64,000 nucleotides of DNA from a bacterium (GCA_030648955.1 JAUSHB010000010.1:13556-77555), one strand, 5' to 3'. Positions 13,594-44,065 are shown, numbered from the stretch's first letter. Notes: generated by a model not told the origin, from the letters alone. Numbers and translations: made by a program.

Positions 13594-15391
13594 CTACCGT
13601 AACCCAATATGAAGCTCATAAATGTGGCGATAGGAACCATTAGGAATTTTCATAAGTTCATCGTGACTGCCTTGCTCGATAATATTACCACCGGCCAACA
13701 CTAAAATTCTGTTTGCCTTGCGTACCGTACTTAAGCGGTGAGCAATAATAAATGTGGTACGTCCTTTCATTAACCGCTCAAGAGATTCAGTAATACTCCT
13801 TTCGGTCTTGGGATCAAGCGCGCTTGTCGGCTCATCGAGAATAAGAATTTTGGGATTGCGTAAAATGGCGCGAGCGATCGCAATACGCTGCTTTTGTCCT
13901 ACAGAGAGCTTCACCCCCCGCTCACCTACCAACTGTTCGTACTTCTTCCGAAAACCTTCAATGAACTCGCTCGCATATGCTTCTTTAGCGGCACTATAAA
14001 TCTCCTCATCAGATGCGCCTTGATTCCCATGACGAATATTCATTTTTATTGTGTCATTGAAGAGCACTACTTCCTGTGGCACCACGGCAATATACTTTCG
14101 CAAAAATTCCAAATCAAGATCACTGGTTTTATGCCCATCAACCAACACATTGCCACTTTTAGGAAAATAATAACCGGAAATAAGGTCGACGAGCGTGCTT
14201 TTACCCGCACCGGATTCTCCAACGAGTGCAACTACTTCCCCCGCAGTTACAGAAAAATTCACATTTTTGAGCACAGAATCCCCGCGTTTATAGGAAAATA
14301 CAACATTCGAAAACTCGATATTCCCCTGCAGTGGAGATAAGTTCTTCTTTTTTCCAAACCGATATCGCTCTATAGGCACCGCGAGTATTTTTTCCGCACG
14401 TTCAATCGCAATAATGCCGTTTTGGATGATCTGCCAATTGTGTCCCAGTGTTACAAATGTGTCCCAGTGTTACAAATGGACCAAAGACCATAGCCGCATA
14501 TCCATTGAGCGCGATGAGTCCTCCAATCGTAAGTTCCCCTGCTTGAATAAAATGTACCGACAAAATAAAAATAGTAAGCTGTGTCGCCGCAATCACCATA
14601 CGCTGATAAAATCCAATGCCACTCCAAATTTTCTCGACCTTATACCAAAATGTTGCCGCTTTGTTGATAAATTTTCTCCTTACTTTTTCTGATTCATATT
14701 CTTCCCCTGTTGATTGCTTGATCGTTTGCGTATTGGCAAATGCGTCATATGCATCCCCATATGCTTCATTCCACGCCTTGTTCCCCTTTCGTTGATATTT
14801 CACAATCGGAGGAACAATGATTGCAAGAAGTATCACATAGACTATGATTCCAACAACAATAACAGAAGCGAGAAGTGGATGAATTAAAAAAGCAATAGTA
14901 ACGCCGACTGCGACACTAAGAAATTGCGGGGCGAGATTGATCACTACCTGTTCAATAATATTCGAGAGCGCATTCCCTGCTCTCATAAAACGATCCCAAA
15001 TAATTCCCGTTTTATATTCCTTATGAAACGAGAGCGGGAGTCTTAAAAGGTGGGCGGTTGCACGTGCGGGATATTCCGCATGGATAAATGTTCCTATCCG
15101 TCGACGTTCCTTATCGTTGATCCAATCAGAAATATTTGCGACCAGTTGTACAATTACCCAAAATGCAATAAATCCCGTCCACTGGGGCATAACAACAGGA
15201 TAGTTAAACATAAGTGATGGATTGAGTAAGGAATCTAAAAACTTTCCAACAATAAAAGGCACTGATGCATTTGCAAACGCAGAAAATACCCCCAAAAGAG
15301 AAAGAAAGGTAATTTCTTTTTTATATTCCCCGAGATACTGGAAAAGTATTTTCCAGCCTTCTGTAAGATTAAGTGTTGCTTTTTTCTGCAT
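13594..15391 (-). pseudogene. ABC exporter (fused TMD-NBD, MsbA/ABCB-like) interrupted by a 19-bp tandem duplication
   Basis: 14402..15391 encodes a 6-TM ABC exporter membrane domain. 13594..14379 encodes the NBD (Walker A GESGAGKST, signature LSVGQKQR, Walker B ILILDEPTSALD) and begins at GTG. Deleting one copy of GTGTCCCAGTGTTACAAAT (14439-14457 or 14458-14476) joins them in frame as ...FGPFVTLGHNWQIIQNGIIAIERAEKILAVPIERYRF... Confidence 0.75.
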
Positions 15392-15467: not shown

Positions 15468-16196
15468 TTATCGTGCAACAGGTACTTTGTTAAAATTCGA
15501 GATACGTACATGTTCGCGAGCGGATGAATTGTGTAATTTTGCAACTTGCAACATTATTAATTGTGCCGCGTGTTTATAGTCCTCAATGGTTACTGTTGCA
15601 ACATCAGGAAAAATATCTTTGGGATACAGTGGTTTCCCATATTTAATACTGATTTTCCTTCTGCGCAACACAAAATCAATAGGACTCATTTTGAAATGAC
15701 CGTTCATTGCGACGGGAACAATAGGCACTCCTGTTATATGAGAAAGAAATGCAACACCTCCTTTCCCATTTCCCACTTCCCCGTTCTCTGTTTTCCCTCC
15801 TTCGGGAAACATAAGAATGCTTTTGCCCGCATTAAGGATATTGATGTGTTCTTGAAGCGAGAGTGTGTAATCTTTCTTTCCTGTATGTGCAGGATACGCT
15901 CCCCACAATTTAAACCAAAATCCACCATAAATATATTTACTGAAACCGTCTTTTTCGTAAAATTCCCGCTCGCGAGCAACATAAAATATCGGCGTTATGG
16001 GAGAGAAGGGATTAAGACTCGCAGGCACCAAAATGGGATCAAGCTCACTTCCGTGATTAGCCGCAAAAATTACTCCGTGGGAAAGCCCCTTAAGATTTTC
16101 CTTCCCAAAAACTTTGAAGCGTGCAAAAAAACCAAGCACTAGCCATGTCGGAATCCAAACGAGTGTCTGTAATATGAATGGTGAAAAATACCTCAT
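15468..16196 (-). CDS. plsC: 1-acyl-sn-glycerol-3-phosphate acyltransferase (LPLAT/PlsC family)
   Basis: HX4D motif AANHGSELD, the FPEGG motif, and an N-terminal TM segment. Confidence 0.75.
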   Translation of the reverse strand: MRYFSPFILQTLVWIPTWLVLGFFARFKVFGKENLKGLSHGVIFAANHGSELDPILVPASLNPFSPITPIFYVAREREFYEKDGFSKYIYGGFWFKLWGAYPAHTGKKDYTLSLQEHINILNAGKSILMFPEGGKTENGEVGNGKGGVAFLSHITGVPIVPVAMNGHFKMSPIDFVLRRRKISIKYGKPLYPKDIFPDVATVTIEDYKHAAQLIMLQVAKLHNSSAREHVRISNFNKVPVAR

Positions 16197-19864: not shown

Positions 19865-20476
19865 TTATAATTTTTCTTCAAACACTGCAACCTTAACATT
19901 GGGCGGTTTAATTATTTTTCCATTGAGCGCATATCCCTTCTGAACCACCGCGACAATTATATGATCTTCCTCCGGATTATCTGTTGGTACATTTTCAAAC
20001 GAAGCATGGTGCGTAGGATCAAATTTTTCTCCAACGGGATTTAGTTCTTTTAGCCCGTGTTGTATGAGCGTGCCCATAAGCTTACTGTGAATATACTCAA
20101 CGCCTGTCCGCCAATTTTTATCCACCTTCTCCCATGCTTCTTTGTTCCCAAATGCCATTTCAAAACTTTCAATGACGGGCAAAAGTTCTTCAATAAGACC
20201 TTCGTTCGCAAACTTAATGAAATTATTTCTGCTTTCTTCGTCAGATTTTCTTGCGTTTACGAAATCGGCTTTTGAGCGCTGCCATCCGAGAAGATATTCC
20301 TGTTTTTCTTTGACGCACACCTCGAGTTTTTGCCGTAACTTTTTCATGGCATCACGCGAAAGCGTTTCTCCTACCTCATCATCAATTTCCTTATCAAAGA
20401 TGACATCATCATACTCATTATTTTCACCCTTGTCAAGAGGGGTTTCGTCTTGATGATTGTTATTGTTTTTATTCAT
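19865..20476 (-). CDS. grpE: nucleotide exchange factor GrpE
   Basis: 203 aa with an acidic N-terminus, a coiled coil, and a C-terminal GrpE beta-domain. It sits immediately upstream of dnaK. Confidence 0.85.
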   Translation of the reverse strand: MNKNNNNHQDETPLDKGENNEYDDVIFDKEIDDEVGETLSRDAMKKLRQKLEVCVKEKQEYLLGWQRSKADFVNARKSDEESRNNFIKFANEGLIEELLPVIESFEMAFGNKEAWEKVDKNWRTGVEYIHSKLMGTLIQHGLKELNPVGEKFDPTHHASFENVPTDNPEEDHIIVAVVQKGYALNGKIIKPPNVKVAVFEEKL

Positions 20477-20637
20477 AGAAAAAAACGTGGTGCGTTATGT
20501 AAAGTATATACAAAATTATGGGAAAATTGAAGGGGCTATTTTAGCAGTTTTTTGAGGATGGGAAATTATTTATTTCCCCGCTTCAACTTAAGATAGGTGC
20601 GCACGATTTTTACTAAGGAAGTGATGATGGGGAATGG

Positions 20638-21033
20638 TTAAATTTTTTGATTTTCTTTTCGCAACTTCCAGGATTTTATGCCGATGACAACCAAGGAGAG
20701 AAGGAAAAAGGAAGGAAGAATAAAGAGGTATATTAAAATTTGTGCTTCACTTGAATCAAATTCATGTCTACCTATGACAGTAAGTGGATCAGTTACTGGC
20801 GCCGTTACCGCAAAATAGATGACGCCTAAAGAAATAACGAAAAATGCGACACAAAATTTCCACCACAGACGAAACACTTCTTCTTTTGAAAACGAGAGGA
20901 TTATCGCAAGAACTAGCATTGTAATTGCATAAATCCATAAATCACCAAGATCATCGCTCCCCATAAAACCGAGAATAGCGAAGGCAATCAAACAGGTAAA
21001 AACTATTTTTAAATACTTCATATTTGTATGCAT
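20638..21033 (-). CDS. small membrane protein (hypothetical)
   Basis: 131 aa with about 4 TM segments, downstream of the giant protein gene. Confidence 0.45.
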   Translation of the reverse strand: MHTNMKYLKIVFTCLIAFAILGFMGSDDLGDLWIYAITMLVLAIILSFSKEEVFRLWWKFCVAFFVISLGVIYFAVTAPVTDPLTVIGRHEFDSSEAQILIYLFILPSFFLLSLVVIGIKSWKLRKENQKI

Positions 21034-21047
21034 TAACTTTTAAACTC

Positions 21048-24000
21048 CTAATACCCGACCAGTAACTGTCCTTTGTCTGTCATCACCGTAACCACCGCAA
21101 TTCCCGGCTTTGATATTTTTATTTTTTTACTTTTTCCCTCTTCAACCTCATCCACAATCTTGGTTTCGTTGATTGCTTGTTTATATTTCGTTTCAATTTT
21201 GCGCATATCCTTAAGATGAATTTCTTGAGAGAGTGACTTTAGTATATCATTTTTGAATTTCCATTCATATTCGAGTGTTGTTTTTGGTGTTGCTGTGGCA
21301 ATGCCATTGTAGATGATCGTATTAAAAACAACCTTAATTTCCGTGGGTTCTTCTTCGTACTCAAGGAAAGGGATGTTGGTTGTGTTGCCTGCTTCGTCGG
21401 TAATCGTGGTGCTGGTTGCGGTGGTGTTTACCGTAGTGGATGAGAGATTATCGATGCCCGTGATAAAAAATTTGTTGGCAGCGGGGTCAAAAGTAAAACG
21501 TGCTTCTGGTGGGGTTGCATCATAGATAGTGGTACCGCCAAGAGTTGGTTTAAGTGTGGAATCGATTGTGTTATCGTTGTTGAAATCAATCGCGAGTGTA
21601 GTCGTAGTTGAAAGTACTCCTGTCCATGTAAGAGTCACTTGTGTGGTTGTAGCAGTGGGAATAGCTTCGTAGGTGGTGGAAGCCATGACAATGTCGCCAC
21701 GAAGCTCTTCAAGGTCAAGAGTGAACGAACCTGAAGCGTAGGCATCAAGTTTTACGGTATGCAAAGTATCGGCAGAAACAATGATAATTTTGGTATCACC
21801 AAGAGTGTAGTAAGTACTACCCTTGATGCCTTCTTCAATCAATCCCGTGGTCGTCGAGATACCAGTATGGTTGCCTGCTTGGTCATAGATGTTGAGGTTG
21901 AGGGGTGAATGAAGTTGATACTTGATATATGGTTTTGTGGAGACAAGTAATGAAGAATCATTGGTAATATATTGTTCAGGGGTCGAACTGCTTATGACAA
22001 TCGAATGGATGAAGGAGCGAAGGGGATCAACTTCAAGAATATTTTTGTGCTCACGGTCAATTGTTGATGTTAAATTGTTATACTTTCCCAAATCCACCCA
22101 CCACTTTTGCGTCATTGAAGAAGTCGGCATGAGATGCGCGCTTTCTTCCACCACTGTTTTGTCGCCGTTTAACGTTACCTTATCTTGAATTTTAATGACA
22201 TCAACATATCTCTCACAAATAATTGGTTGTGGTGCGCCGATTGTTTGCGGTGTCGATGGGGGATCTCTGGGGATACATACTTTATTCTTTTCGTAACGAA
22301 TCACCGCGGGAGTATATATCCCCCACCCTGCGATTTCATAAACCATAGTCGATGTGGCAGGAGTCCATTGGTCGAGCGTCGCGTGGATTGTTTCGGCGTT
22401 TGAAAGCAGGGTTGAATTTCCAATCGCAGGAGAAGAAAGATCGTCATAGGCAGGTACAGCCCGTCCGTCACCGCCCGTGAGATAATCTGCAAGCTCATCA
22501 TAGGTGTCGATGGTATCGCCATAACGTGCTGAGATTACGGGACTCACTGCGTTTCCTCCAAACTCAATGAGCGGCGTTGAGGAGCCGATGTATGCACGCG
22601 ATGGAAGGAGATTGTATCCCGTTGGCATATTGTGCAAAAGGTCACGAACGCGCTCCGCATCCATGAGAAAACCTAATGGACCAAGACTTCCGCCATGAAG
22701 AAGCTGGCCGACAGTGTCAGGCGTTCCTGCTTGGGGAACGGCGACAAAAATAACATTGTCGATTCTGTCGTAGAGGGGGTCGTTGGCCTCCTTCAGTTTT
22801 TGAATGAGCGCCTTGGTGACGAGTCCACCGTTTGAATGCGCAACGATGGTGACCTTTTGGGTCTTCGACGAATCCGCGAGTATTTTCAACTGCTTGTATA
22901 GGTAACTATTTGTGAACCCTTGCGGGGTACTGTATGAAATCCCGTCAGTTGATGTTGCGCCATTCTGAAGAATATCCTCGAGTGAGAGCCGCCAATCGTA
23001 TGCGATCATAGAGTAATCGTTGATGATGTGATCGGCTTCTTTCCACTTCTTGAGGTCGTTTATAAACGATTGGTAAATATTGGAAGCATATACTTCATCA
23101 ATAACACCAGCGGTGCCTTCTTTTGTGTATAACGAGTTAATGCTCTTCCCTGCTCCATTGAGTACGAGGCGTTGGTGATTGCAGTCCAGTATTGAAACCC
23201 AGCGTTCTTTTTCATTGTTAAATACTCCACAATCGCTGCTTTTTTCAAACAGTCTTGATCCCATCATCCCCGGCAAAAACAGAACGTTGGAATAACAGTC
23301 GGCGGTGCAGGGAGGGGGTATATTGTTCCACCCATCTTGTGTTGTCCACGGAAGATTATCCTGCCCGCCATAAAAAATATATGGCGAATCGCAGAAGTTG
23401 TCGTTATTTGAATCACTACAACCCTCTGCTGTCGTATCAAAGTTACTCCAGTAGTTGCCACCGATTGATGGGGTGAGATTAAAAACATTACCGTTGCCAC
23501 CATTGACACGAGCCTGCGTAAAGTTGCCGATAAGATTGTTGTTGTAAACTTGGTTGTTGTTGGAAGAGAATAGATAGATTCCGTAAACGTTATTGTTTGA
23601 TGCAGTGTTGTTTGTCAGAATGTTGTTACTGGATAAGGAAAATAAGATTCCATAAAAGTTGTTCCCTAACACAGTGTTGTTTGTCAGTGTGTTATTGTTT
23701 GAGGAACCATAGAGGAGAATTCCGGAGTTGTTGTTTGATGCGATATTGTTTGTCAGAACGTTATTGCTACTGGAAGAGTCGAGATAGATTCCAGAGTTAT
23801 TGTTTGAGGAATTTACGTTCGCAATTGTGGATGAGCTTGTTTGTATGAGAAATAAGCCGTTGTTTTTCTTCGTTATCGAACCGTCAATTGTGATATTGTT
23901 TATATTTGAACCGCCGGCGTTGCACAGTATCAATTCAGAAAAAGTTTCATTACTTAAGGTAACCGCGCTGTTGAAGTATCTGATTGGTCTCCCGCCGGAA

Positions 24001-24977
24001 CCAATAGTGTTGGTAATACTGTTGTCACAATGGCTATCTGACGATACTTGAACATGAAGGTCGTCGGAAGAGTTTTCCTGCGCAACATTGTTCATCAGAA
24101 TATTATTACTGGAAAAGTAGAGGTAGATTCCAAAACCATTTGAACTCGCGGTATTGTTGGTTAAAGTGTTGTTGTTACTAAGATATCCAAGAAAGATTCC
24201 GTAACTATTTGAGGTCGTAGTGTTGTTGGTTAAAGTGTTGTTGGATCCACGGAGTAAGATTCCATTCAAAAATTTCTTAACATTTAAATTCTTGATAGTA
24301 ACGCCAGTCCTTCCAGAAAATCCGGAAAGATAGACACCGTTTCCCGTATTGCTCCCGGTTAACATGTGGCTGTTGCCGTCAAGCGTTATGCCATTGCTGT
24401 CGATCTGAATGGTCTCGGTTAAATCCACATTCAGTGTGCAGGTTTTAATAGCGGAATCCCAGTTGCCAATCAAAGTGCAATCGCCGCCAGTGGCATCATC
24501 ACGAATGAACTTGGTGCTTTTGTGGGTTTGGATAAAGACAATGTGGGGAGTTGAAATGTCTTGCGTGTATGAATATGCGCCGTTTTCGTCAGTGGTAAAT
24601 TGAGTCAGGTTGTGATAATTGTCTTCATATTTATAGTAAGTGGTTGAGGTAGTAAAACCATAAAGGGTGATCTGGGTTGAGGTTGCAATTAAAAGAGCGG
24701 GCGACTCAATCGTCATTGTTACCATGTTGGGAACCGACTCCATTCTAAGTTTGATTACTTCTGTGCTGTCTAAACTGATATTTAAATATGCGCTGTCGGT
24801 GATAGAAAAGTTTGCGCTCGTACCTTCTACGACGCCTGATCGTGTCGATGGTTCAAACGATGGCAACTCTTGAGCTCTTGCGCGATCAGCGAATAAGAAT
24901 ACCCCTGCGACAAAAACCGCCGCAAGTACAAGATGGGGCGCAAAGAAAAACTGTGATTTTAGGTTCGATATATTCAT
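21048..24977 (-). CDS. giant secreted multi-domain protein: signal peptide, parallel beta-helix repeats, lipase-like alpha/beta hydrolase, C-terminal beta-rich domains
   Basis: Signal peptide MNISNLKSQFFFAPHLVLAAVFVAGVFLFADRARA. Repeated N-N-x-[TL]-x-N-N-T-A-S-N-N / GIYL units indicate a right-handed beta-helix. The motif VLFLPGMMGSRL ... VTIVAHSNGGLV is a G-H-S-x-G nucleophile elbow of the PGAP1/LCAT-like lipase type. The C-terminal 400 aa are Thr-rich and Ig-like. Confidence 0.8.
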   Translation of the reverse strand: MNISNLKSQFFFAPHLVLAAVFVAGVFLFADRARAQELPSFEPSTRSGVVEGTSANFSITDSAYLNISLDSTEVIKLRMESVPNMVTMTIESPALLIATSTQITLYGFTTSTTYYKYEDNYHNLTQFTTDENGAYSYTQDISTPHIVFIQTHKSTKFIRDDATGGDCTLIGNWDSAIKTCTLNVDLTETIQIDSNGITLDGNSHMLTGSNTGNGVYLSGFSGRTGVTIKNLNVKKFLNGILLRGSNNTLTNNTTTSNSYGIFLGYLSNNNTLTNNTASSNGFGIYLYFSSNNILMNNVAQENSSDDLHVQVSSDSHCDNSITNTIGSGGRPIRYFNSAVTLSNETFSELILCNAGGSNINNITIDGSITKKNNGLFLIQTSSSTIANVNSSNNNSGIYLDSSSSNNVLTNNIASNNNSGILLYGSSNNNTLTNNTVLGNNFYGILFSLSSNNILTNNTASNNNVYGIYLFSSNNNQVYNNNLIGNFTQARVNGGNGNVFNLTPSIGGNYWSNFDTTAEGCSDSNNDNFCDSPYIFYGGQDNLPWTTQDGWNNIPPPCTADCYSNVLFLPGMMGSRLFEKSSDCGVFNNEKERWVSILDCNHQRLVLNGAGKSINSLYTKEGTAGVIDEVYASNIYQSFINDLKKWKEADHIINDYSMIAYDWRLSLEDILQNGATSTDGISYSTPQGFTNSYLYKQLKILADSSKTQKVTIVAHSNGGLVTKALIQKLKEANDPLYDRIDNVIFVAVPQAGTPDTVGQLLHGGSLGPLGFLMDAERVRDLLHNMPTGYNLLPSRAYIGSSTPLIEFGGNAVSPVISARYGDTIDTYDELADYLTGGDGRAVPAYDDLSSPAIGNSTLLSNAETIHATLDQWTPATSTMVYEIAGWGIYTPAVIRYEKNKVCIPRDPPSTPQTIGAPQPIICERYVDVIKIQDKVTLNGDKTVVEESAHLMPTSSMTQKWWVDLGKYNNLTSTIDREHKNILEVDPLRSFIHSIVISSSTPEQYITNDSSLLVSTKPYIKYQLHSPLNLNIYDQAGNHTGISTTTGLIEEGIKGSTYYTLGDTKIIIVSADTLHTVKLDAYASGSFTLDLEELRGDIVMASTTYEAIPTATTTQVTLTWTGVLSTTTTLAIDFNNDNTIDSTLKPTLGGTTIYDATPPEARFTFDPAANKFFITGIDNLSSTTVNTTATSTTITDEAGNTTNIPFLEYEEEPTEIKVVFNTIIYNGIATATPKTTLEYEWKFKNDILKSLSQEIHLKDMRKIETKYKQAINETKIVDEVEEGKSKKIKISKPGIAVVTVMTDKGQLLVGY

Positions 24978-25107
24978 AACATCTACACCCTAGCAGAGTT
25001 GTTCAGGGGGTCAACAGGCAAGTTTCTAGCCCTTTTCTCCCGCAATTCTGTAAACTAACATTTACTCCCTAATGCGCCTTAGGGGCACGGGCGACACTAG
25101 CCATCGC

Positions 25108-25680
25108 TTAGCGTTTAGACCACTGCGGAGCTTTGCGGGCTTTTTTAAGACCGAATTTTCGGCGTTCTTTCATTCTTGGATCTCGCTTGAGAAAACCAAG
25201 TTTCTTCAAACGCTTACGAAGTTCCAAATCATATTTTACAAGCGCACGAGAAATGCCATGGCGAAGCGCTTCCGCTTGGGAATGAATCCCTCCGCCGTAG
25301 AGACGTCCTTCAACATGAAACTTTGTTAAAACTTTTGATTTGAGACCTGCATCGGCGACAATCATCTGAAGTTCTTTGGTTGGGAAATATGTGGCGAGGT
25401 CTTTGTGGTTGATAGTAAAGGTATTCTTTGAGCTTTCTGTAATTCTCACACGAGCAACAGATGTTTTCCTTCTTCCAATAGCAGAAATATATCGCCCCGT
25501 TGTTTTTGTGGTTGGTTTTTCAACATCCCGCACAAGTGCGTGATCTTCTTCCTGTGGTGTAGAAATTGCACGCGCTGACGTAGTCGCAACTTTTTTAGCG
25601 GTTGGCTTGGTTTTTGTTTTTACCCCTTTGACTGCGAGCGACTCAACAGGGGTGCTTGTGGTTTTTGTATCGTTTTCCAT
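25108..25680 (-). CDS. rpsI: 30S ribosomal protein S9 with about 60-aa low-complexity N-terminal extension
   Basis: C-terminal 125 aa: ...GRRKTSVARVRI ... GGGIHSQAEALRHGISRAL ... KKARKAPQWSKR. The N-terminus is T/K/A-rich, so the true start may be internal. Confidence 0.85.
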   Translation of the reverse strand: MENDTKTTSTPVESLAVKGVKTKTKPTAKKVATTSARAISTPQEEDHALVRDVEKPTTKTTGRYISAIGRRKTSVARVRITESSKNTFTINHKDLATYFPTKELQMIVADAGLKSKVLTKFHVEGRLYGGGIHSQAEALRHGISRALVKYDLELRKRLKKLGFLKRDPRMKERRKFGLKKARKAPQWSKR

Positions 25681-25709
25681 AAATAATTATTCAAATTATA
25701 TTTACATTA

Positions 25710-26066
25710 CTACAGACTAATTTTAAGATTCTTCATCATTAACGGACGGATACTGTTGCGCGCCAACATTCGAGTAATCGCCTTGATAAGAACCTCTTCA
25801 TATCCCTTTTTTGCGATCATGCTTTCAAGCGTCTGCTCTTTAAGACCGCCCGGATATCCGGAATATGATTGATATATTTTTTGCTTTGTTTTCTTTAATG
25901 AAATGGAAAGTTTTGATGCATTAATAATCTCTACTTTTGAAGTAGGGATGGTATGTCGTTCAAATGAAGGAGAATTCTTACCACGTAATGAGGCCGCCGC
26001 TTCGGTCGCAACCCTGCCAATCGTTCTTCCTGTCGCATCAATAGTATGTGTTTTTGTTGTTGTCAT
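25710..26066 (-). CDS. rplM: 50S ribosomal protein L13
   Basis: IDATGRTIGRVATEAAASLRGK ... GYPGGLK. Confidence 0.85.
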   Translation of the reverse strand: MTTTKTHTIDATGRTIGRVATEAAASLRGKNSPSFERHTIPTSKVEIINASKLSISLKKTKQKIYQSYSGYPGGLKEQTLESMIAKKGYEEVLIKAITRMLARNSIRPLMMKNLKISL

Positions 26067-30127: not shown

Positions 30128-31564
30128 TTATTCAAGTGCTTCAACGATGGTAATGTTCTTAGGATTTTTAGGAAAATTTGTCATCCAAAATGGCTGTATA
30201 ACTGCTTCTGCTTTCCAAATTGAAGCATATTGACTAATAACATTCTTAAATCCATCTTTTTTAGAAACACCCGTAAGTTCCCCCTTAAGTTTTTCTTGGT
30301 CAACATCCCACACAATAGAAGCTTGACCCGATATCACCAGAGAAATGTCTTTTAGATTTCCTGGATCAAGAATCTCGTGTTTGGGCTCCACATCAAGTTC
30401 CTCAATATTACGAATTAGCAAAGGACTTCCGTCATATGAGTCATCTATTTTTTTGACGATAAACCCACTAAGAATGCTTCTATTGAACATAACACCGTAC
30501 AGTGAGCCTTTTACCGTGATATGAGTCGGATTTTGAGGATTTATTGCCTCAAGGTCATTAAATATTATGAATATGGTGCTATCGTAGAGGATAAAACCCT
30601 CCGGAATCTGTGCTCGCGCTTTTTTAATGAGTTCACCTCGCAATGATTCTTTTAAGCGAGCAACTGCTTTATTTTGATCCTCTTCCGAAGGGACTTTTAC
30701 CTTGCCAGAAAACCCTCCCATCAAAGGAGTCTGGGATCGAGCATAAAATTTTGTATAACGGGGATCACCCTTAAAACCAGGAATGGTAAAATCTGATGGA
30801 CCACTGTTGTATTCTTCGCCCGGAGCGTCTCCATAAACTTTCGCTTCAACGCTTCCCGGGGTGGTTTTACCTCCCGCAACAGACATTCCGGGCACTACGA
30901 TTGAGTTATCAATACGATAAATTTTTCCGCTCTTTGATTCAAACCGTGTATTTTTAATCAATCGCTGACTTGCTGTACTATATTCGTTGTAAATTTTTAT
31001 TGTTCCCGAAGCTTTTTTTGTTATCTCTTTCTCAAGTGTTGCGGGAATATCTTCCGACATTTCTTCATTGGGGAGAGGAATCTTTTGGTAAGGAACGAAC
31101 CCTTCTTCGGTTGTATTTTCTCGCGCAACAATATCCAACTCAAGGGAAACAGATTTATTAAGTGGTATTATTTTAATTGTTGCTCCAAAAAAAATAGTGG
31201 AAAATGCAACACCAAGCGTGCCAACAATGACCACTACGGCAAGAATCCAAAGTACAAAATGAGAAGATTTTTTTTTGACATTATTTGAATTGCTTATCCG
31301 TGAAGACATACCGCTGCGAGAATGCTCGAAATCAGACACGTTCGATTCTGTGTGGTACGACTTCTTTATCAAGCGAGGAAGAAAATTTTCTGGCTGACCA
31401 CTTTGTAAAATCATTGGTGGTTTCTCGACAGTATCGTGTAAATCACGTGATTGTGTTGGGGCACTATTGGACGATGCACCAGGAATCTCACCTGAAACAT
31501 TTTTGAACCCTTCTTTCATCCTCTTGGAGGGAAACACGACATCCTGAATAATTCTTCTTGCCAT
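30128..31564 (-). CDS. single-pass membrane protein with a large extracytoplasmic domain (hypothetical; possibly PilN/O- or FtsQ-like)
   Basis: Cytoplasmic N-terminus of about 120 aa, then a TM segment FVLWILAVVVIVGTLGVAFSTIFFG, then about 330 aa of beta-rich domain. Confidence 0.55.
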   Translation of the reverse strand: MARRIIQDVVFPSKRMKEGFKNVSGEIPGASSNSAPTQSRDLHDTVEKPPMILQSGQPENFLPRLIKKSYHTESNVSDFEHSRSGMSSRISNSNNVKKKSSHFVLWILAVVVIVGTLGVAFSTIFFGATIKIIPLNKSVSLELDIVARENTTEEGFVPYQKIPLPNEEMSEDIPATLEKEITKKASGTIKIYNEYSTASQRLIKNTRFESKSGKIYRIDNSIVVPGMSVAGGKTTPGSVEAKVYGDAPGEEYNSGPSDFTIPGFKGDPRYTKFYARSQTPLMGGFSGKVKVPSEEDQNKAVARLKESLRGELIKKARAQIPEGFILYDSTIFIIFNDLEAINPQNPTHITVKGSLYGVMFNRSILSGFIVKKIDDSYDGSPLLIRNIEELDVEPKHEILDPGNLKDISLVISGQASIVWDVDQEKLKGELTGVSKKDGFKNVISQYASIWKAEAVIQPFWMTNFPKNPKNITIVEALE

Positions 31565-31596: not shown

Positions 31597-32787
31597 TTAT
31601 ATATGTCCGAGCTCGACAATACGATCAGCAAACAATGCTTCAACAACAATGAACGGGTCTTTTTCGGTCTGCGGACTGAAAATGGAGAATTTTCCCATGG
31701 TTGCATTATCGAGCAACGTGACTTCAAATGGTGATCCTGTTCCGGTAAATTCTCCTAGACTTGGGGATGTGAGACAATCAAAAAACCATGGAGCAACATC
31801 AGCGTCCGAAGTGAAGAAAACTGTATTCGGAAGTGAAATATCATCAGAAAGACTTCGGAGTCCCTCTTTGAGCGAATAGGTCCATTCCCCCTTTGATTCA
31901 TTAAGAATTTTTTGAATCTTTACCTTAGTACTATCGTTCGTCTTCCCTTCACGATACATGGTGTAGAGTGAGGCAACTTCTTCCGGTATCGTATTTAATC
32001 CACTTGATAGTCGTCGTAGTAAATAATTCTTCCCCAAGGGAAATGACGCCGTCTCGAGAAGAACATTGCTTTTCACCAATGATATGTCCGCAACTTCGCC
32101 ACTGATATCCATAAATAAGAAGTCGCTCTTGTGTGAGAAAATATCGCGTATCGTGCTAAATGCGGTAAGTGAAAATGAACTAAATTTAATATTTCGTGAA
32201 CCAAAAATTTTAGATACGCGAGATTTCACTGAACTCAATACTCTTTTGGGGACCATGCTGATGTAGAGTGATATCTCAAGATTTTTTGCACGCATGCCGT
32301 ACGGATTATCTGTAACATATCCATTCAACTTCATTTGAATGGTATGCGTTTCCATAATTTCTACTTCTTCCTCCCCCATACGTTTATACTTGCCAATATT
32401 GTGTGCCTTAAAACTTTCGATTTCACTCTCAACAAGATCATCAATACCATGTCTACTTACTGCAAATTCTTTACCTTGTTTCATCTTTATCACACGAGTC
32501 TGAGATACATACCATGGAGATGAAAAAACGCATAAAAAACTTCGTGGATTTTGCATTCCTGACTTCTGCATCCTTACCAACACCTTTTCAAGCGTCTCGA
32601 GCATAGAAGAAAGAAATCTCCCGAAATTAAGATCACTTTGAAATACCATACTTTCCCGAGCACTCCAAAGTATTTTTGGGGTAGAACCAGCCTCAAAGGA
32701 AATAAGCGCTCCACCAATACTCGCTGAACCAATATCAAAGACTGCAATGGTAGTCTTTTTGTCGGATTTTTTTAAAAAAGAGAACAT
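31597..32787 (-). CDS. actin-like ATPase (ASKHA fold; FtsA/PilM-like)
   Basis: Phosphate-1 motif IAVFDIGSASIGGAL and phosphate-2 motif FLFMDISGEVADISLV. It lies upstream of the membrane protein at 30128. Confidence 0.45.
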   Translation of the reverse strand: MFSFLKKSDKKTTIAVFDIGSASIGGALISFEAGSTPKILWSARESMVFQSDLNFGRFLSSMLETLEKVLVRMQKSGMQNPRSFLCVFSSPWYVSQTRVIKMKQGKEFAVSRHGIDDLVESEIESFKAHNIGKYKRMGEEEVEIMETHTIQMKLNGYVTDNPYGMRAKNLEISLYISMVPKRVLSSVKSRVSKIFGSRNIKFSSFSLTAFSTIRDIFSHKSDFLFMDISGEVADISLVKSNVLLETASFPLGKNYLLRRLSSGLNTIPEEVASLYTMYREGKTNDSTKVKIQKILNESKGEWTYSLKEGLRSLSDDISLPNTVFFTSDADVAPWFFDCLTSPSLGEFTGTGSPFEVTLLDNATMGKFSIFSPQTEKDPFIVVEALFADRIVELGHI

Positions 32788-34777: not shown

Positions 34778-36577
34778 TTAGGATTGTGGCACCGCAAGCG
34801 CGCGGGAAATTTCATCATCGCTCCATCCGGCATCCTTAAGCGCCTTCTCGATTGCTTGAAATGTAAGCCCCGCCTCTCGTGCTTGTTTAATGTAATCGAG
34901 AAGCGACTTGTTTGGTGGCTTTAGTTCTCCATGATTGAGAGTTTTACTCTCAATGTTGTTTACATTACTTACTTGACTAATACCAGAAGCAGTGTCGGGC
35001 ATACCTCCTTCTTCGGTAGTTTCTTTTTCAGCACGTAGATTTTTTAATGTACCTACTTGTTCTACTGCAGTGGCGAATGGACTTTGTGGGGAAACTGCTT
35101 CGCTTGTTGTGTTTTGATGCCCTATCACGTGTTTAAGATGGTCCACGTCTAGGTGATCTTTTTTAAAATGCTTAAAAAGAATTGCGATGCCGATACCAAG
35201 ACCGATGAGAAGAAAGATGCCTGAAGCTACGAGTGCCCATGCAAGCATCCCCATCGAACGAATCTTATTCATAAACTCATCCCACTTTGAATCAATTGAA
35301 ACCCCCGAAGCAATAAGGGCATTGCACTGTTCAATATACGGTTCGACGTATTTTTCAACGCCAAATTTCTCGTTGACACTTTTTGCAAGTTCAAATTCAT
35401 CGATAGCCAATTTGCAGTGATTGTCGTGAAGAAGAATCAATCCGGATTTTAGATGCCCGCCATAGTTACCCTCATCGTTGATAATAAATGAATTGGAAAG
35501 AATTGCCTTTGCAATATCTGCAGGAACGGCAAATGCAAAATTATCGCCCGCCTGTTCCGTTGACACAACAGACAGACCATTTGATTGACTTTGAGAGCTT
35601 GTTTGCATGGTGACAAGCCCGGCTACTTGTCCATCAGTGTCAAACAAGGGTCCCCCGCTGGAACCAGTAGAAATTTTTGCGTCGGTTTGGAATATTTTAA
35701 AATCAGTATTTTGTGAATTTTTAAATGCACTGACTACTCCTTTTGTGAACATTGATTCGAGTAGATTGTTGCCATTCAACTCGGCATTTGAAGGAAAGCT
35801 AAATACATATACCGGACTTCCTATTGATAACTTATTCCCCCCTCCCAATCGAAGCGACGGAAGATTTTTTTCTAATATTTTTAATACGGCGACATCCTTA
35901 TCGTCTTTATACCAATTGTCATTCACACTCATAATCTCGACAGGAAATCCTGTTTCAGTAAGTTTTTTAAGCGTAACTTCTTTTGAAGTCGGATCAAGAA
36001 CAACAATCTTTTTTGTGAGATTAAAGGTGCTCTGTTCCACTACATAATCAAGGATCTGGCGCCCAAAGGCTACCCCCTCTTCTTTTGTTCTGCTACTATT
36101 CATTTTTGTAGCCTCGACATCACTGAGAGAAGATAGCTCCCCAGCAAGAAGAAGGTTAATAATGGGCTCCACAACTTGAATCTTTGCTGTGGCATCAGAA
36201 ACCACATGTGAATTCGTGAGGATATATCCATCCGGATTAACGACAAAACCGCTCCCCGCAAAATCAAGATTGACGGGCATCTTAAGTGGTTTTTCCCCGG
36301 GAATTGAACGCACGGTAAAATCTTTCAGATTGATTTTGAACGGTGCGATTGAAACATCGCCTTCAACGTGTACAACGATGCGTACGACTGCTGGCTTTAC
36401 CATACTCACCAATTCTTCTTCGGAAAGCTTTAATGGTGAAGCATCGAGTGATGTATCAAGAGTGCTTGCGAGTTGGCCTTGTGAAATGTCCCCCTGTTGA
36501 TAGATCTCCAATACGGAGGCGGATGAAACACCGAACAAGACAAAGAAAATGAGAAGGTAGAAATACTGTTTACGCAT
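34778..36577 (-). CDS. trypsin-like serine protease (S1C/HtrA-like) with signal peptide, a TM segment and a C-terminal domain
   Basis: TNSHVV (His), the D site, GSSGGPLF (Ser); a late TM segment WALVASGIFLLIGLGIGIAILF. Confidence 0.7.
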   Translation of the reverse strand: MRKQYFYLLIFFVLFGVSSASVLEIYQQGDISQGQLASTLDTSLDASPLKLSEEELVSMVKPAVVRIVVHVEGDVSIAPFKINLKDFTVRSIPGEKPLKMPVNLDFAGSGFVVNPDGYILTNSHVVSDATAKIQVVEPIINLLLAGELSSLSDVEATKMNSSRTKEEGVAFGRQILDYVVEQSTFNLTKKIVVLDPTSKEVTLKKLTETGFPVEIMSVNDNWYKDDKDVAVLKILEKNLPSLRLGGGNKLSIGSPVYVFSFPSNAELNGNNLLESMFTKGVVSAFKNSQNTDFKIFQTDAKISTGSSGGPLFDTDGQVAGLVTMQTSSQSQSNGLSVVSTEQAGDNFAFAVPADIAKAILSNSFIINDEGNYGGHLKSGLILLHDNHCKLAIDEFELAKSVNEKFGVEKYVEPYIEQCNALIASGVSIDSKWDEFMNKIRSMGMLAWALVASGIFLLIGLGIGIAILFKHFKKDHLDVDHLKHVIGHQNTTSEAVSPQSPFATAVEQVGTLKNLRAEKETTEEGGMPDTASGISQVSNVNNIESKTLNHGELKPPNKSLLDYIKQAREAGLTFQAIEKALKDAGWSDDEISRALAVPQS

Positions 36578-42838: not shown

Positions 42839-44065
42839 TTACACAGGAAGGTTTGGAGGGGGTTCGGCTTTACGCGACTCAATACGTCCGAAAGTCGGAG
42901 TCTGAAGAACACCGCCGGGGAAATGGTAGATGGTAGCCAATTCTTCGGTGTTTAATATAAACGGTTTCCATTGAAACGGCTTGTAAAAATATCCCCGACT
43001 TTTATATGCCTTAAATAAATCAATTTTTTTCTTTGTTACGCGATACTTGTTGTAATCCTGCCATGGAAAATCAAATGACGTAACTCGTGTAGGCTTAAAG
43101 CCATTGAGATCATTGGTCGTATATTGTCGTAAAATCCCCATAAGTCCTTTGATGTGCGTACCATTAAATGAGTCTTTTTTTGCAAGATACATCGCGCGAA
43201 TTCCACAATCAAATCCTAATTTGGAAATACTGCGATTCAGTGCTTTGATTAAATCTTGTTCTGCCGTGGTAAGAAATCTCCCCGTTTTACCCTCTCCTTT
43301 CGGTTGTGATTTTTCGGTAATTTTACTTATCAAATCTTTGCCCTCATCTTTCCAACTTCGCATTCCCCACCCCATAAAACTATCCGGGTCCCGGTGACGA
43401 TCTTCGGCAGCACGAATTAATATCTGAATCCAAAATTGTTCATCCTTCTCCATTGTACCCAAAAATTCAAGCGTTGCTGTCATGGGGTCAGTTTTGAATT
43501 CTTCCTTGGTTGATTCTCTATCAAGACCATAATCGACATACGTTTTGATCGGATATGCATCTTCTTTTGAAAGAACAAACTCGGTTCCGAAAATTTCCCA
43601 CGAAGATTCTTTGCCGACATATTTTACATAACGAGTATAGTCGGGAACTTCATAAATTTCTACTTGAGGGTATTGTGCGTAAATCTGCGACTCAATAAGA
43701 TTTTTGTACACTTTATTGGTACGAATGAAAAACTTCACCGCGCCACCGAGTGACACCATTTCAAGAGAAAACCAATCTCGCACACGACCCTTGAAATACC
43801 AGTCATACCACGTCCCCTTGCTTGTTTGAAAAAATACATTAAGTAAAAGCTCCATCGCAAGGGGTGGTTTTGTAATTTCTCTTGGAAGTCTTACCTCAAG
43901 GATGACCCACTCAATCTTTGAAAGATATACCGCGCGAATATAATAGAGCCAAATGCGCCACAACACAATGAGAAGTACGAAAGGACCCCAAAAAACAAGA
44001 TAGCGAAAGGCTGCTTCGTAGATACTTAAAACTTGCCCGAATAGTTGAAAAAGCTGTTCAAACAT
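42839..44065 (-). CDS. hypothetical membrane-anchored protein (two N-terminal TM segments plus about 330 aa of soluble domain)
   Basis: No recognised motif. Confidence 0.5.
   Translation of the reverse strand: MFEQLFQLFGQVLSIYEAAFRYLVFWGPFVLLIVLWRIWLYYIRAVYLSKIEWVILEVRLPREITKPPLAMELLLNVFFQTSKGTWYDWYFKGRVRDWFSLEMVSLGGAVKFFIRTNKVYKNLIESQIYAQYPQVEIYEVPDYTRYVKYVGKESSWEIFGTEFVLSKEDAYPIKTYVDYGLDRESTKEEFKTDPMTATLEFLGTMEKDEQFWIQILIRAAEDRHRDPDSFMGWGMRSWKDEGKDLISKITEKSQPKGEGKTGRFLTTAEQDLIKALNRSISKLGFDCGIRAMYLAKKDSFNGTHIKGLMGILRQYTTNDLNGFKPTRVTSFDFPWQDYNKYRVTKKKIDLFKAYKSRGYFYKPFQWKPFILNTEELATIYHFPGGVLQTPTFGRIESRKAEPPPNLPV

What the first reader, a model, noticed from the sequence alone, without database searches (positions are those of the whole stretch)
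21048..24977. 1309-aa secreted beta-helix plus lipase-like protein
This is the largest gene in the window. It has a Sec signal peptide, about 15 N-N-x-T-x-N-N-T-A-S-N-N-type parallel beta-helix rungs, an embedded alpha/beta-hydrolase with G-H-S-N-G nucleophile (PGAP1/LCAT-like lipase type), and Thr-rich Ig-like C-terminal domains. A small 4-TM protein follows at 20638..21033. This architecture is typical of surface or host-interaction proteins in episymbiotic small-genome bacteria. Combining an adhesin-like helix with a lipase is unusual.
Basis: partly seen in the sequence, partly recalled or inferred. Interest (0 to 1): 0.5.

Follow-up and report, generated by a model that had tools for sequence, protein, structure and literature searches.

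The report
Exported lipase with conserved membrane partner
This gene from an ultra-small (Patescibacteria) bacterium encodes an exported, modular enzyme whose core looks like a membrane-lipid-cutting phospholipase, always paired with a tiny membrane protein. That makes the pair a concrete candidate for how these lipid-dependent bacteria attack or harvest other cells' membranes.

Summary
ORF 21048..24977(-) encodes a 1309-aa protein with a signal peptide, an N-domain, a NosD-type beta-helix, an LCAT-type alpha/beta-hydrolase and an all-beta C-terminal region. A 4-TM gene follows at 20638..21033(-).

Corrections:
- The nucleophile elbow is A-H-S715-N-G, not G-H-S-N-G.
- Only 9 canonical rungs are visible.
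- The C-terminus is not demonstrably Ig-like.

The real conserved unit is hydrolase + C-terminal module + small membrane protein:
- The C-terminal domain occurs in about 1,960 protein clusters, nearly all Patescibacteria where a source names the organism.
- The small gene follows 68 of 87 testable family ORFs, at a median gap of 15 nt.
- Here the AGGAG Shine-Dalgarno overlaps the hydrolase stop codon.

The beta-helix is a swappable N-terminal module. Its closest relatives carry peptidoglycan hydrolase domains instead.

Some relatives carry arrays of signal-less C-terminal cassettes, each with a divergent small partner, like polymorphic-toxin loci.

Most likely this is a host-membrane-directed phospholipase A with a cognate self-protection or docking partner. 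Activity and partner role are inferred. It is a new variant of a known kind, of moderately high interest.

The parts
21048..24977 (-). Whole gene, 1309 codons plus TAG stop. Exported modular LCAT-type hydrolase (public accession MDO8572514.1).
   Evidence: ORF list; identical public protein; Pfam domains.
24873..24977 (-). Residues 1-35: N-terminal export signal. Hydrophobic core plus A-R-A|Q-E cleavage-type site. A signal peptide is inferred; an uncleaved signal anchor is not excluded.
   Evidence: Sequence and hydropathy. 113 of 124 full-length family members have such a segment.
24483..24872 (-). Residues 36-165: Thr/Ser-rich N-domain of unknown fold. It travels together with the beta-helix.
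   Evidence: It co-occurs with the helix in 106 of the 238 sampled proteins. No Pfam family.
23343..24482 (-). Residues 166-545: right-handed parallel beta-helix of NosD/CASH type. It has 9 canonical rungs in two blocks and ends in the cap motif G-G-N-Y-W-S-N...D-N-L-P-W.
   Evidence: Pfam NosD 2.1e-35 and Beta_helix 3.5e-27; TIGR03804 in 7 stretches. AlgG epimerase helix 2e-7. Rung count.
21978..23342 (-). Residues 546-1000: LCAT/LPLA2/Tle4-type alpha/beta-hydrolase with a large cap insertion.
22833..22835 (-). Codon of Ser715, the predicted nucleophile in I-V-A-H-S-N-G-G-L.
   Evidence: H714, S715, G717 and G718 are invariant in 128 sequences and in 69 sequences. Coordinates verified.
22161..22163 (-). 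Codon of Asp939, the predicted triad acid in G-D-K-T-V (family consensus D-G-D-G-T-V).
   Evidence: G938, D939 and V942 are invariant. Coordinates verified.
22047..22049 (-). Codon of His977, the predicted triad base in E-H-K-N-I-L.
   Evidence: Invariant. Coordinates verified.
22989..23000 (-). Y660-D-W-R663 motif.
   Evidence: Invariant in 128 sequences. That it is a hallmark of the LCAT family is my recollection and was not tested here.
21051..21977 (-). Residues 1001-1309: family-specific all-beta C-terminal module. It is probably two domains, with conserved H-S-P-L and a D-x-N-x-D-type loop around D1131.
20638..21033 (-). Partner gene: 131-aa (127 aa in NCBI's call) 4-TM membrane protein with the conserved TM2-TM3 turn motif ...S-K-E-E-V-F-R-L-W-W-K-F... 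(public accession MDO8572513.1).
   Evidence: Family HMM hit 1.3e-19 (this copy is one of the 29 sequences the HMM was built from, so that score is partly circular). The independent support is tblastn hits just downstream of the hydrolase in other loci (L002 1.6e-7, L031 6.4e-5). A homologous gene follows the hydrolase in 68 of 87 testable cases at a median gap of 15 nt. Alignment A4. No Pfam or PDB relative.
21034..21050 (-). Junction TAGGAGTTTAAAAGTT-ATG. The hydrolase stop codon overlaps an AGGAG Shine-Dalgarno 9 nt before the partner's ATG, which implies translational coupling.
   Evidence: Sequence read directly.

Best explanation
The two genes form a cassette typical of Patescibacteria (class Paceibacteria).

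Gene 1 is exported through the Sec pathway. It is built from two units that evolve separately.
- Unit A is the N-terminal domain plus a NosD/CASH-type beta-helix. It is a rigid stalk or glycan-binding targeting module. Sister proteins use the same module to carry peptidoglycan hydrolases.
- Unit B is the constant core: an LCAT/LPLA2/Tle4-fold serine hydrolase (Ser715-Asp939-His977) followed by a family-specific all-beta C-terminal module.

I propose the enzyme acts as a phospholipase A, possibly also a transacylase, on the membrane phospholipids of the host or a neighbouring cell. That would weaken the membrane and release fatty acids and lysolipids. These lipid-auxotrophic bacteria could use those products.

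Gene 2 is translationally coupled and encodes a 4-TM protein. I propose it is the cognate partner of the C-terminal module in the producer's own membrane. Its most likely role is immunity-like self-protection. Docking is the alternative.

Shown:
- the domain anatomy;
- the fold;
- the invariant triad residues;
- export signals across the family;
- modular exchange of the N-terminal unit;
- tight, widespread pairing with the small gene;
- orphan C-terminal cassette arrays in relatives.

Inferred:
- the lipid substrate;
- the host as target;
- lipid salvage;
- the partner's role.
For: Fold and catalysis:
- AF2 model pLDDT 92, pTM 0.87.
- Pfam LCAT is above cutoff here. In 75%-identical relatives it spans profile positions 87-358 of 392.
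- P569, G570, Y660-D-W-R663, H714, S715, G717, G718, G938, D939 and H977 are invariant in 128 sequences.
- The Ser-Asp-His order matches LCAT S181/D345/H377 (PMC5880497).

Export:
- 113 of 124 members have an N-terminal hydrophobic signal.
- There is no C-terminal anchor and no LPXTG.

Envelope-attack context:
- The nearest N-module relatives (45-62% identity over about 510 aa) carry NlpC/P60, M23, SLT, C39-like or metallophosphatase domains.

Partner:
- A small-TM gene follows 68 of 87 testable family ORFs and 33 of 35 complete ones at gaps of 0-29 nt.
- It is the only recurrent neighbour among 829 ORFs.
- It is absent next to sister beta-helix peptidases but present after the LCAT-type P0122.
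- The Shine-Dalgarno overlaps the stop codon.

Link between C-terminal module and partner:
- Arrays of signal-less C-terminal cassettes are 55-86% identical to the main gene's last 130-310 aa. Each is followed by a small-TM gene only 25-60% identical to its siblings.
- The cassettes are under purifying selection: pN 0.15-0.29 against saturated pS, and dN/dS 0.17-0.26 in L016.
- Extra small-TM genes without a cassette occur in L013, L016, L028, L061 and L074.

Biology:
- CPR bacteria lack lipid synthesis, are enriched in lysolipids, and phospholipase A was suggested as the source (PMC7242380).
- Lipid uptake and breakdown mechanisms remain unidentified (PMC11665869).
- A secreted phospholipase was proposed for the same dual role in Vampirococcus (PMC8080830).
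Against: - No activity data exist. The substrate is inferred from fold similarity at only 14-18% identity.
- Triad geometry could not be measured because model coordinates are not exposed.
- By sequence alone no solved LCAT or LPLA2 is detected.
- Known phospholipase immunity proteins (the Tli families) are soluble or lipoprotein binders of the catalytic domain. Here the partner has only about 20-aa and 10-aa external loops. The cassette evidence ties it to the non-catalytic C-terminus, which is unprecedented for immunity.
- Its best-conserved motif lies at the predicted cytoplasmic TM2-TM3 turn, which is odd for a purely extracellular docking or immunity role.
- The window's own partner lacks the loop-1 Cys pair that most members have.
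- The window has no orphan cassettes.
- The host is unknown. Nothing shows that the enzyme reaches another cell.
- The PlsC-like acyltransferase nearby is not a conserved neighbour.
Confidence: 0.45

Rival explanations
1. The enzyme is the same, but the small 4-TM protein is a membrane dock or assembly factor rather than an immunity protein. The exported hydrolase has no anchor of its own. It would be held on the producer's surface through its C-terminal beta module, which binds the partner's short external loops. The enzyme would then work at the epibiont-host contact. The cassettes would be duplication products that keep dock and ligand matched.
For: - There is no LPXTG, no C-terminal TM and no lipobox, yet the protein is exported.
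- The partner is tied to the C-terminal module, not to the catalytic or helix modules.
- Translational coupling implies matched synthesis.
- Most partners have a Cys-x(5-10)-Cys external loop that could form a structured epitope.
Against: - A generic dock should be conserved, but partners diverge much faster than the enzyme. Partner identity is about 35% where the enzyme module is 75% identical (window against L002).
- Partner genes accumulate in extra copies. That is more typical of immunity-like diversification.
- The external loops are very short.
- The window's copy lacks the Cys pair.
Confidence: 0.25
2. It is a housekeeping envelope enzyme. As an LCAT-type acyltransferase or lipase it would remodel the bacterium's own membrane or transfer acyl chains to an own-surface acceptor. 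The small membrane protein would act as substrate presenter or regulator, and no other cell would be attacked.
For: - LCAT-family enzymes are acyltransferases as well as lipases (PMC5880497).
- The gene sits among housekeeping genes here: rpsI upstream and grpE-dnaK-dnaJ downstream.
- A PlsC-like acyltransferase lies 4.4 kb away.
- CPR membranes are lysolipid-rich (PMC7242380).
Against: - The housekeeping neighbourhood is not conserved in any of 80 other loci.
- Copy number varies, and cassette arrays and N-terminal module swapping with cell-wall hydrolases are features of conflict or host-interaction genes, not core metabolism.
- The second-best structural match is an antibacterial effector.
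Confidence: 0.15
3. It is not a lipid enzyme. The alpha/beta-hydrolase would be a carbohydrate esterase or polyester depolymerase that works on a polymer bound by the CASH-type beta-helix, for example O-acetylated cell-wall glycans or PHB.
For: - NosD/CASH helices are typically carbohydrate-binding or carbohydrate-modifying. The AlgG match is 2e-7.
Against: - Most family members have no beta-helix at all (117 of 149), so the helix cannot define the substrate.
- The Pfam LCAT hit is above cutoff.
Confidence: 0.1
4. It is a purely structural adhesin or S-layer-like surface protein in which the hydrolase fold is a catalytically dead scaffold.
For: - It is a large, Thr/Asn/Ser-rich, exported, repeat-containing protein.
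- One relative is named 'Cell surface protein' by its source (P0007).
Against: - The nucleophile, acid, base, elbow glycines and the P-G of the F-L-P-G motif are invariant across 128 sequences at only 26-75% overall identity. A dead scaffold would not show that.
Confidence: 0.03

Closest known systems
Lysosomal phospholipase A2 (PLA2G15) and LCAT (Pfam PF02450, LCAT family)
   Same: - The Pfam LCAT model is matched above its cutoff.
- The Ser-Asp-His order is the same.
- It shares the x-H-S-x-G elbow, the Y-D-W-R motif and the G-D-x-T-V acid motif. That the last two are family hallmarks is my recollection.
- Both are secreted enzymes that act on membrane or lipoprotein surfaces.
   Different: - Sequence identity is only 14-18%, undetectable by phmmer against PDB.
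- The cap insertion is larger (Ser to Asp spacing 224 against 164 residues).
- It is embedded in a 1309-aa bacterial multi-domain protein with a beta-helix in front and a 309-aa all-beta module behind.
- It has an obligate 4-TM partner gene.
- Activity is untested.
Tle4/Tli4 (TplE) type VI secretion antibacterial phospholipase and immunity pair of Pseudomonas aeruginosa (PDB 4r1d)
   Same: - It is a bacterial lipase aimed at other cells' membranes.
- It is encoded next to a small cognate partner gene.
   Different: - There is no T6SS. Export is by a Sec signal, and no VgrG, PAAR or Hcp gene recurs nearby.
- The partner is a 4-TM membrane protein with no detectable similarity to any PDB sequence, Tli4 included. 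It is not a periplasmic protein.
- The cassette data link the partner to the non-catalytic C-terminus.
Polymorphic toxin loci with orphan C-terminus/immunity cassettes (CdiA-CT/CdiI, Rhs, MafB type)
   Same: In relatives (L022, L025/L026, L016, L003, L002, L024) a full-length gene and its small partner are followed by tightly packed, signal-less C-terminal fragments. Each fragment has its own divergent small partner gene. The fragments are kept open under purifying selection.
   Different: - The variable C-terminal cassette is a beta-sandwich-like module, not the toxic enzyme. The enzyme domain is constant and lies outside the cassette.
- The cassettes are only moderately divergent (55-86% identity).
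- No arrays are present in this window.
- An immunity function of the partner is untested.
NosD (nitrous oxide reductase maturation) and CASH-domain beta-helix proteins such as AlgG C5-epimerase
   Same: - Right-handed parallel beta-helix.
- Pfam NosD 2.1e-35.
- PDB sequence match to AlgG 2e-7.
- This is the basis of the public name 'NosD domain-containing protein'.
   Different: - It is not a NosD orthologue. TIGR04247 scores 55.7 bits against a cutoff of 300.
- There is no nos gene context.
- Here the helix is an N-terminal carrier module shared with peptidoglycan hydrolases.
Secreted phospholipase proposed for host-lipid use in the CPR predator Vampirococcus lugosii (Vamp_34_196; PMC8080830)
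   Same: It is the same proposed biological logic: a secreted lipase in a lipid-auxotrophic CPR bacterium that both damages the host membrane and supplies lipids.
   Different: - The family relationship was not tested, because I did not have that sequence.
- That report describes a single gene with no partner protein, no cassette arrays and no modular architecture.

Membership tests
LCAT family (Pfam PF02450; LCAT/LPLA2/PDAT) | Match to the family HMM at or above the curated gathering score | tested here: met
   29.6 bits against a cutoff of 21, E 5.5e-7, residues 656-797. In 75%-identical relatives the match is 49.3 bits and spans profile positions 88-358 of 392.
LCAT family (Pfam PF02450; LCAT/LPLA2/PDAT) | Alpha/beta-hydrolase core with the LCAT/LPLA2-type cap and accessory subdomains (overall fold) | tested here: met
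   [not shown]
LCAT family (Pfam PF02450; LCAT/LPLA2/PDAT) | Ser-Asp-His catalytic triad in that order, with the nucleophile in a small-x-S-x-G elbow | tested here: met
   A-H-S715-N-G, G-D939-K-T-V and E-H977-K-N-I-L. All three residues are invariant in 128 and in 69 aligned homologues. The order is as in LCAT S181/D345/H377 (PMC5880497). 3-D geometry could not be measured because no coordinates are available.
LCAT family (Pfam PF02450; LCAT/LPLA2/PDAT) | Phospholipase A and/or acyltransferase activity on phospholipids | not testable with these tools
   This needs an enzyme assay.
T6SS Tle4 phospholipase effectors with Tli4 immunity | Structural similarity of the lipase domain | tested here: met
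   [not shown]
T6SS Tle4 phospholipase effectors with Tli4 immunity | Delivery by, and genetic linkage to, a type VI secretion system (VgrG/PAAR/Hcp) | tested here: not met
   The protein has an N-terminal Sec-type signal instead. Among 829 ORFs in 80 related loci, the only recurrent neighbour is the small TM protein.
T6SS Tle4 phospholipase effectors with Tli4 immunity | Adjacent Tli4-family periplasmic immunity protein | tested here: not met
   The adjacent partner is a 4-TM protein. Its family profile finds no PDB sequence at E<=10, and the PDB includes Tli4 of 4r1d. It has no shared Pfam family.
NosD (nitrous oxide reductase maturation protein) | Match to the NosD subfamily model at its curated cutoff | tested here: not met
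   TIGR04247 scores 55.7 bits against a cutoff of 300. Only the generic NosD/Beta_helix domain models are met.
Right-handed parallel beta-helix (CASH/NosD-type) domain proteins | Repeated ~22-24-aa rungs matching the Beta_helix/NosD/para_beta_helix models | tested here: met
   NosD 122.5 bits, Beta_helix 95.4 bits, TIGR03804 102.6 bits in 7 stretches. There are 9 canonical rungs.
Polymorphic toxin systems with orphan CT/immunity arrays | Small cognate gene immediately downstream of the large exported protein | tested here: met
   The gap in the window is 14 nt, with the Shine-Dalgarno overlapping the stop codon. 68 of 87 family ORFs are paired.
Polymorphic toxin systems with orphan CT/immunity arrays | Arrays of orphan C-terminal fragments, each with its own partner gene | tested here: inconclusive
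   Arrays are present in relatives L022, L025/L026, L016, L003, L002 and L024. They are absent from this window, where only 161 nt separate the small gene from grpE.
Polymorphic toxin systems with orphan CT/immunity arrays | The variable C-terminal cassette is the toxic domain, and the partner neutralises it | tested here: not met
   The cassette covers only the all-beta C-terminal module. The hydrolase lies upstream of it and is not part of the cassettes. Neutralisation cannot be tested here.
   [not shown]
   15.8 bits against a cutoff of 24.3.

The most novel reading that the evidence does not exclude
The cassette could be the long-sought lipid-acquisition device of Paceibacteria. A surface phospholipase A or transacylase would cut host phospholipids into lysolipids and fatty acids at the cell-cell contact. 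Its C-terminal beta module would engage a cognate 4-TM protein in the epibiont membrane, either to hand over the products or to shield that membrane. The specificity of this pair would be diversified by silent C-terminal/partner cassettes. That would be a polymorphic-toxin-style switching system in which the variable part is the partner-recognition module and not the enzyme.
Probability: 0.2. Interest if true: 0.85.

Novelty: new variant of a known kind. Interest (0 to 1): 0.6.

Why it matters
Patescibacteria make up a large share of bacterial diversity. They cannot make their own lipids, yet they have normal acyl-lipid membranes rich in lysolipids. [quoted passage not shown]

This finding points to one defined, very widespread gene pair:
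- an exported LCAT/LPLA2-fold enzyme with an intact triad;
- an uncharacterised 4-TM partner that is always next to it.

The pair can be tested directly by lipase assays, by toxicity and rescue experiments in E. coli, and by complex prediction or pull-down.

It also shows that the beta-helix N-terminus is a shared carrier for a set of envelope-degrading enzymes (lipase, NlpC/P60, M23, SLT). That gives a way to list the host-attack toolkit of these organisms. The public name 'NosD domain-containing protein' hides all of this.

The cassette arrays, if functional, would be an unusual form of diversification in reduced genomes.

Tried and rejected
- Sequence search of solved structures with the family profile and with the hydrolase domain alone found no LCAT or LPLA2. 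Only fold comparison and the Pfam HMM make the link.
- I could not measure triad distances. Model coordinates are not exposed in /data.
- A word-seeded homologue search with the window's small protein found only itself. The family had to be recovered by position in related loci and then with an HMM.
- The small-protein family was searched against Pfam, NCBIfam (window copy only) and PDB sequences. Nothing was shared by more than one member.
- Conserved synteny with rpsI/rplM/grpE/dnaK was rejected. None of 80 other loci has these neighbours.
- The promoter and terminator scan of 20400-25250 gave counts within shuffled expectation, so it is uninformative.
- Repeat-number variation between strains is not assessable. 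The cluster has a single member and the only second contig is identical. The DNA-level repeat is degenerate.
- A co-fold of the C-terminal module with the partner was not attempted. The two genes are in different frames, and no paired alignment of eligible sequences was available.
- Literature searches for 'Candidate Phyla Radiation' + LCAT, for DUF7379, and for Patescibacteria + polymorphic toxin found no description of this family.
- The window has no Rfam hits and no tRNAs, so it offers no RNA-based taxonomy.

Full report

Yes. The window has an ATG-initiated ORF at 21048..24977 on the minus strand, 1309 aa. It is the longest ORF in the 64 kb; the next is 828 aa. The identical protein is already public as MDO8572514.1, auto-named 'NosD domain-containing protein', from an unclassified MAG. 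The downstream 4-TM gene is MDO8572513.1, 'hypothetical protein'. A second assembly contig (L001) carries the same arrangement.

**2. Anatomy of the protein**

- Residues 1-35 are an N-terminal hydrophobic export signal ending in A-R-A|Q-E.
- Residues 36-165 are a Thr/Ser-rich domain with no Pfam family.
- Residues 166-545 are a right-handed parallel beta-helix:
  - Pfam NosD 2.1e-35, Beta_helix 3.5e-27, TIGR03804 repeat in 7 stretches.
  - It matches the AlgG epimerase helix in PDB at 2e-7.
  - It is not a true NosD: TIGR04247 scores 55.7 bits against a cutoff of 300.
  - At the DNA level only a degenerate 69-nt repeat remains, so there is no sign of recent repeat expansion.
- Residues 546-1000 are the hydrolase. 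Pfam LCAT scores 29.6 bits (cutoff 21) and DUF7379 34.3 bits (cutoff 33). PGAP1 is below its cutoff.
- The nucleophile elbow reads V-A-H-S715-N-G-G, not G-H-S-N-G.
- Residues 1001-1309 are Thr-rich and all-beta.

**3. The hydrolase**

- An AlphaFold2 model of residues 545-1309, built on 69 homologues, is very confident (pLDDT 92, pTM 0.87).
- Foldseek agrees: LPLA2 7.5e-13, LCAT about 1e-10, Tle4 1.7e-9.
- In an alignment of 128 homologues (26-75% identical) these residues are invariant: P569, G570, W593, Y660-D-W-R663, H714, S715, G717, G718, G938, D939, V942, S946 and H977 (repeated with 69 sequences).
- The Ser-Asp-His order matches LCAT's S181/D345/H377 (PMC5880497).
- By sequence alone, solved LCAT and LPLA2 structures are not detected.

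**4. What is the conserved unit?**

- A search with only the last 765 residues gave more than 100 proteins aligned end to end at about 40% identity. They were 750-1340 aa long, and most had no beta-helix.
- Of 149 hydrolase-bearing hits, 145 also carry the C-terminal module. Only 32 carry the helix. The N-terminal extension varies from about 120 to 720 aa.
- An exhaustive search finds the C-terminal module in 1,958 cluster representatives (E<=1e-3). It is almost always at the very end of 900-1500-aa proteins.
- In species-representative genomes at least 573 stretches encode relatives. Most records that name an organism are Patescibacteria (Yonath-, Lloyd-, Zambryski-, Nomura-, Kaiser- and Moranbacteria). 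A few carry other labels (Bdellovibrionales, Nitrospira sp., Acidimicrobiales) and several are labelled only 'bacterium'.
- The best match is a Yonathbacteria MAG at 75% identity.

**5. The protein is a mosaic**

- The 12 closest relatives of the N-terminal unit (residues 36-545; 45-62% identity over about 510 aa) have no LCAT module.
- Where a domain is detectable, they carry NlpC/P60, M23 peptidase, SLT transglycosylase, a C39-like peptidase or a metallophosphatase.
- The closest relatives of the C-terminal unit (59-76% identity) have no homologue of the N-terminal unit.
- Only one protein (P0002) shares both, at 56% each.
- The helix is thus an exchangeable carrier for envelope-degrading enzymes. 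'Helix + lipase' is one recurrent combination, not a unique oddity.

**6. The small membrane protein is an obligate partner**

- Weak tblastn hits of the window's 131-aa protein fall just downstream of the hydrolase gene in more than 20 other loci.
- Systematic extraction shows a 122-145-aa, 3-5-TM ORF starting 0-29 nt after the stop in 33 of 35 loci with a complete C-terminus.
- After clustering all 829 ORFs of 80 loci, this is the only recurrent neighbour: 77 ORFs in 61 loci, with no other family in more than 9 loci.
- 68 of 87 testable hydrolase-family ORFs are followed by it within 150 nt, at a median gap of 15 nt.
- A family HMM built from 29 of these sequences, including the window's own copy, finds exactly one ORF in the window, that copy (1.3e-19). 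That score is partly circular, so it shows only that the window has no second copy.
- The HMM hits two genes after the LCAT-type relative P0122 (about 1e-35 and 1e-33). It hits nothing next to the sister beta-helix peptidases P0018 and P0021.
- The housekeeping neighbours of the window (rpsI, rplM, grpE, dnaK) are not shared by any other locus.
- In the window the hydrolase stop codon overlaps an AGGAG Shine-Dalgarno 9 nt before the partner's ATG, which implies translational coupling.
- The partner family has no Pfam, NCBIfam or PDB relative.
- From the alignment I infer this layout:
  - the N-terminus is inside;
  - there are four TM helices;
  - external loop 1 is short and usually carries Cys-x(5-10)-Cys, which the window's copy lacks;
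  - the conserved turn motif S-L-I-T-Y-x-x-R-E-E-x-F-x-A-W lies at TM2/TM3;
  - one Trp is invariant.

**7. Cassette arrays in relatives**

- In L022, L025/L026, L016, L003, L002 and L024 the full-length gene and its partner are followed by tightly packed fragments. For example, L022 reads H1422 - s - Hct302 - s - Hct302 - s - Hct155.
- These fragments correspond only to the last 130-310 residues, which is the C-terminal module. They are 55-86% identical to the main gene's C-terminus.
- The small genes within one array are only 25-60% identical to each other.
- The fragments lack signal peptides and start in the middle of a domain.
- They are nevertheless under purifying selection: pN 0.15-0.29 against saturated pS of about 0.8, and dN/dS 0.17-0.26 in L016.
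- Extra partner genes without a fragment also occur.
- This resembles the orphan C-terminus/immunity arrays of polymorphic toxin loci, with one important difference: the cassette excludes the enzyme.
- The window itself has a single pair and no orphans.

**8. Most likely mechanism**

Shown:
- an exported, modular protein with an LCAT/LPLA2/Tle4-fold domain and a conserved triad;
- a carrier module shared with cell-wall hydrolases;
- a cognate membrane partner genetically tied to the C-terminal module.

Inferred: the enzyme is a phospholipase A, possibly also a transacylase, acting on another cell's membrane, and the partner protects or docks it on the producer.

This fits three published points:
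- CPR bacteria lack lipid synthesis, are lysolipid-rich, and phospholipase A was suggested as the source (PMC7242380).
- Lipid acquisition mechanisms remain unidentified (PMC11665869).
- A secreted phospholipase was proposed for this dual role in Vampirococcus (PMC8080830).

Export is general in the family: 113 of 124 members have an N-terminal signal, and none has an obvious anchor of its own.

I put 0.45 on the full chain. By my estimate:
- 'LCAT-fold serine hydrolase' is about 0.9;
- 'conserved two-gene cassette' is about 0.95;
- a lipid substrate is about 0.7;
- an immunity-like role and a docking role for the partner are close to even.

**9. Rivals**

- The partner is a dock or assembly factor (0.25).
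- The enzyme remodels the bacterium's own envelope (0.15).
- The enzyme is a carbohydrate or polyester esterase (0.10).
- The protein is a dead-enzyme adhesin (0.03; invariant catalytic residues argue against it).

**10. Novelty**

The enzyme fold and the general idea are known, and the protein is already deposited but misleadingly named. Four things appear undescribed in the literature I could search:
- the family-level architecture;
- the obligate 4-TM partner;
- the C-terminal module with no solved relative;
- the cassette arrays.

I rate it a new variant of a known kind, with interest 0.6.

Noticed in passing
window 15468-16196 (-), with 14402-15391 (-) and 13594-14379 (-): A PlsC-type acyltransferase (Pfam Acyltransferase, 7.9e-17) lies about 4.4 kb downstream of the lipase on the same strand. 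Next to it is a split ABC exporter (ABC_membrane + ABC_tran). Such an enzyme could re-acylate lysolipids. It is not a conserved neighbour of the cassette in other loci.
   Followed up: partly
L022 9297-12871; L025/L026 9256-12435; L016 4242-9632; also L003, L002, L024, L085: Arrays of signal-less C-terminal cassettes (the last 130-310 aa of the hydrolase gene) alternate with divergent small 4-TM genes. The cassettes are under purifying selection. This resembles orphan CT/immunity arrays, except that the cassette excludes the enzyme domain.
   Followed up: partly
L013 7024-7425; L016 4671-5078; L028 11825-12235; L061 9540-9926; L074 8971-9387: Extra copies of the small 4-TM gene occur without a preceding hydrolase fragment, as 'orphan partners'. 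They are 29-60% identical to the first copy.
   Followed up: no
L082/L083 6360-9176; L084 6116-7912: The sister beta-helix enzymes (C39-like P0018 and NlpC/P60 P0021) are followed by their own tightly packed genes of unknown function (343-345 and 589 aa; 198, 42 and 357 aa) with no Pfam hits. These may be partners of those enzymes.
   Followed up: no
window 20001-26000: GC skew is positive (+0.06 to +0.09) across the lipase gene but negative (-0.1 to -0.17) in the flanking genes on the same strand. GC content is unremarkable. The Asn/Thr/Ser-rich coding composition probably explains this. Foreign origin is not excluded.
   Followed up: no
window 45377-46698 (+): An integrase-core (rve_3, 4.1e-12) ORF of 267 aa overlaps ORFs on both strands. 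It is probably an insertion sequence or its remnant.
   Followed up: no
window 30128-31564, 31597-32787, 42839-44065 (all -), 48014-49192 (+): Four ORFs of 392-478 aa have no Pfam family at E<=1e-5.
   Followed up: no
window 34778-36577 (-), 5796-7829 (-), 61104-63590 (-): Other large, possibly envelope- or host-related proteins: a 599-aa trypsin-like peptidase, a 677-aa prolyl oligopeptidase (S9), and an 828-aa protein with a DsbD-type transmembrane domain.
   Followed up: no
window 1-64000: The 64 kb contains no tRNA or tmRNA gene (ARAGORN) and no Rfam family at gathering score, despite many housekeeping genes.
   Followed up: yes
window 20638-21033 (-), residues 27-40 of the small protein: The window's copy of the 4-TM partner lacks the Cys-x(5-10)-Cys pair that most family members have in external loop 1. 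It is among the most divergent members (14-29% identity to the others).
   Followed up: partly
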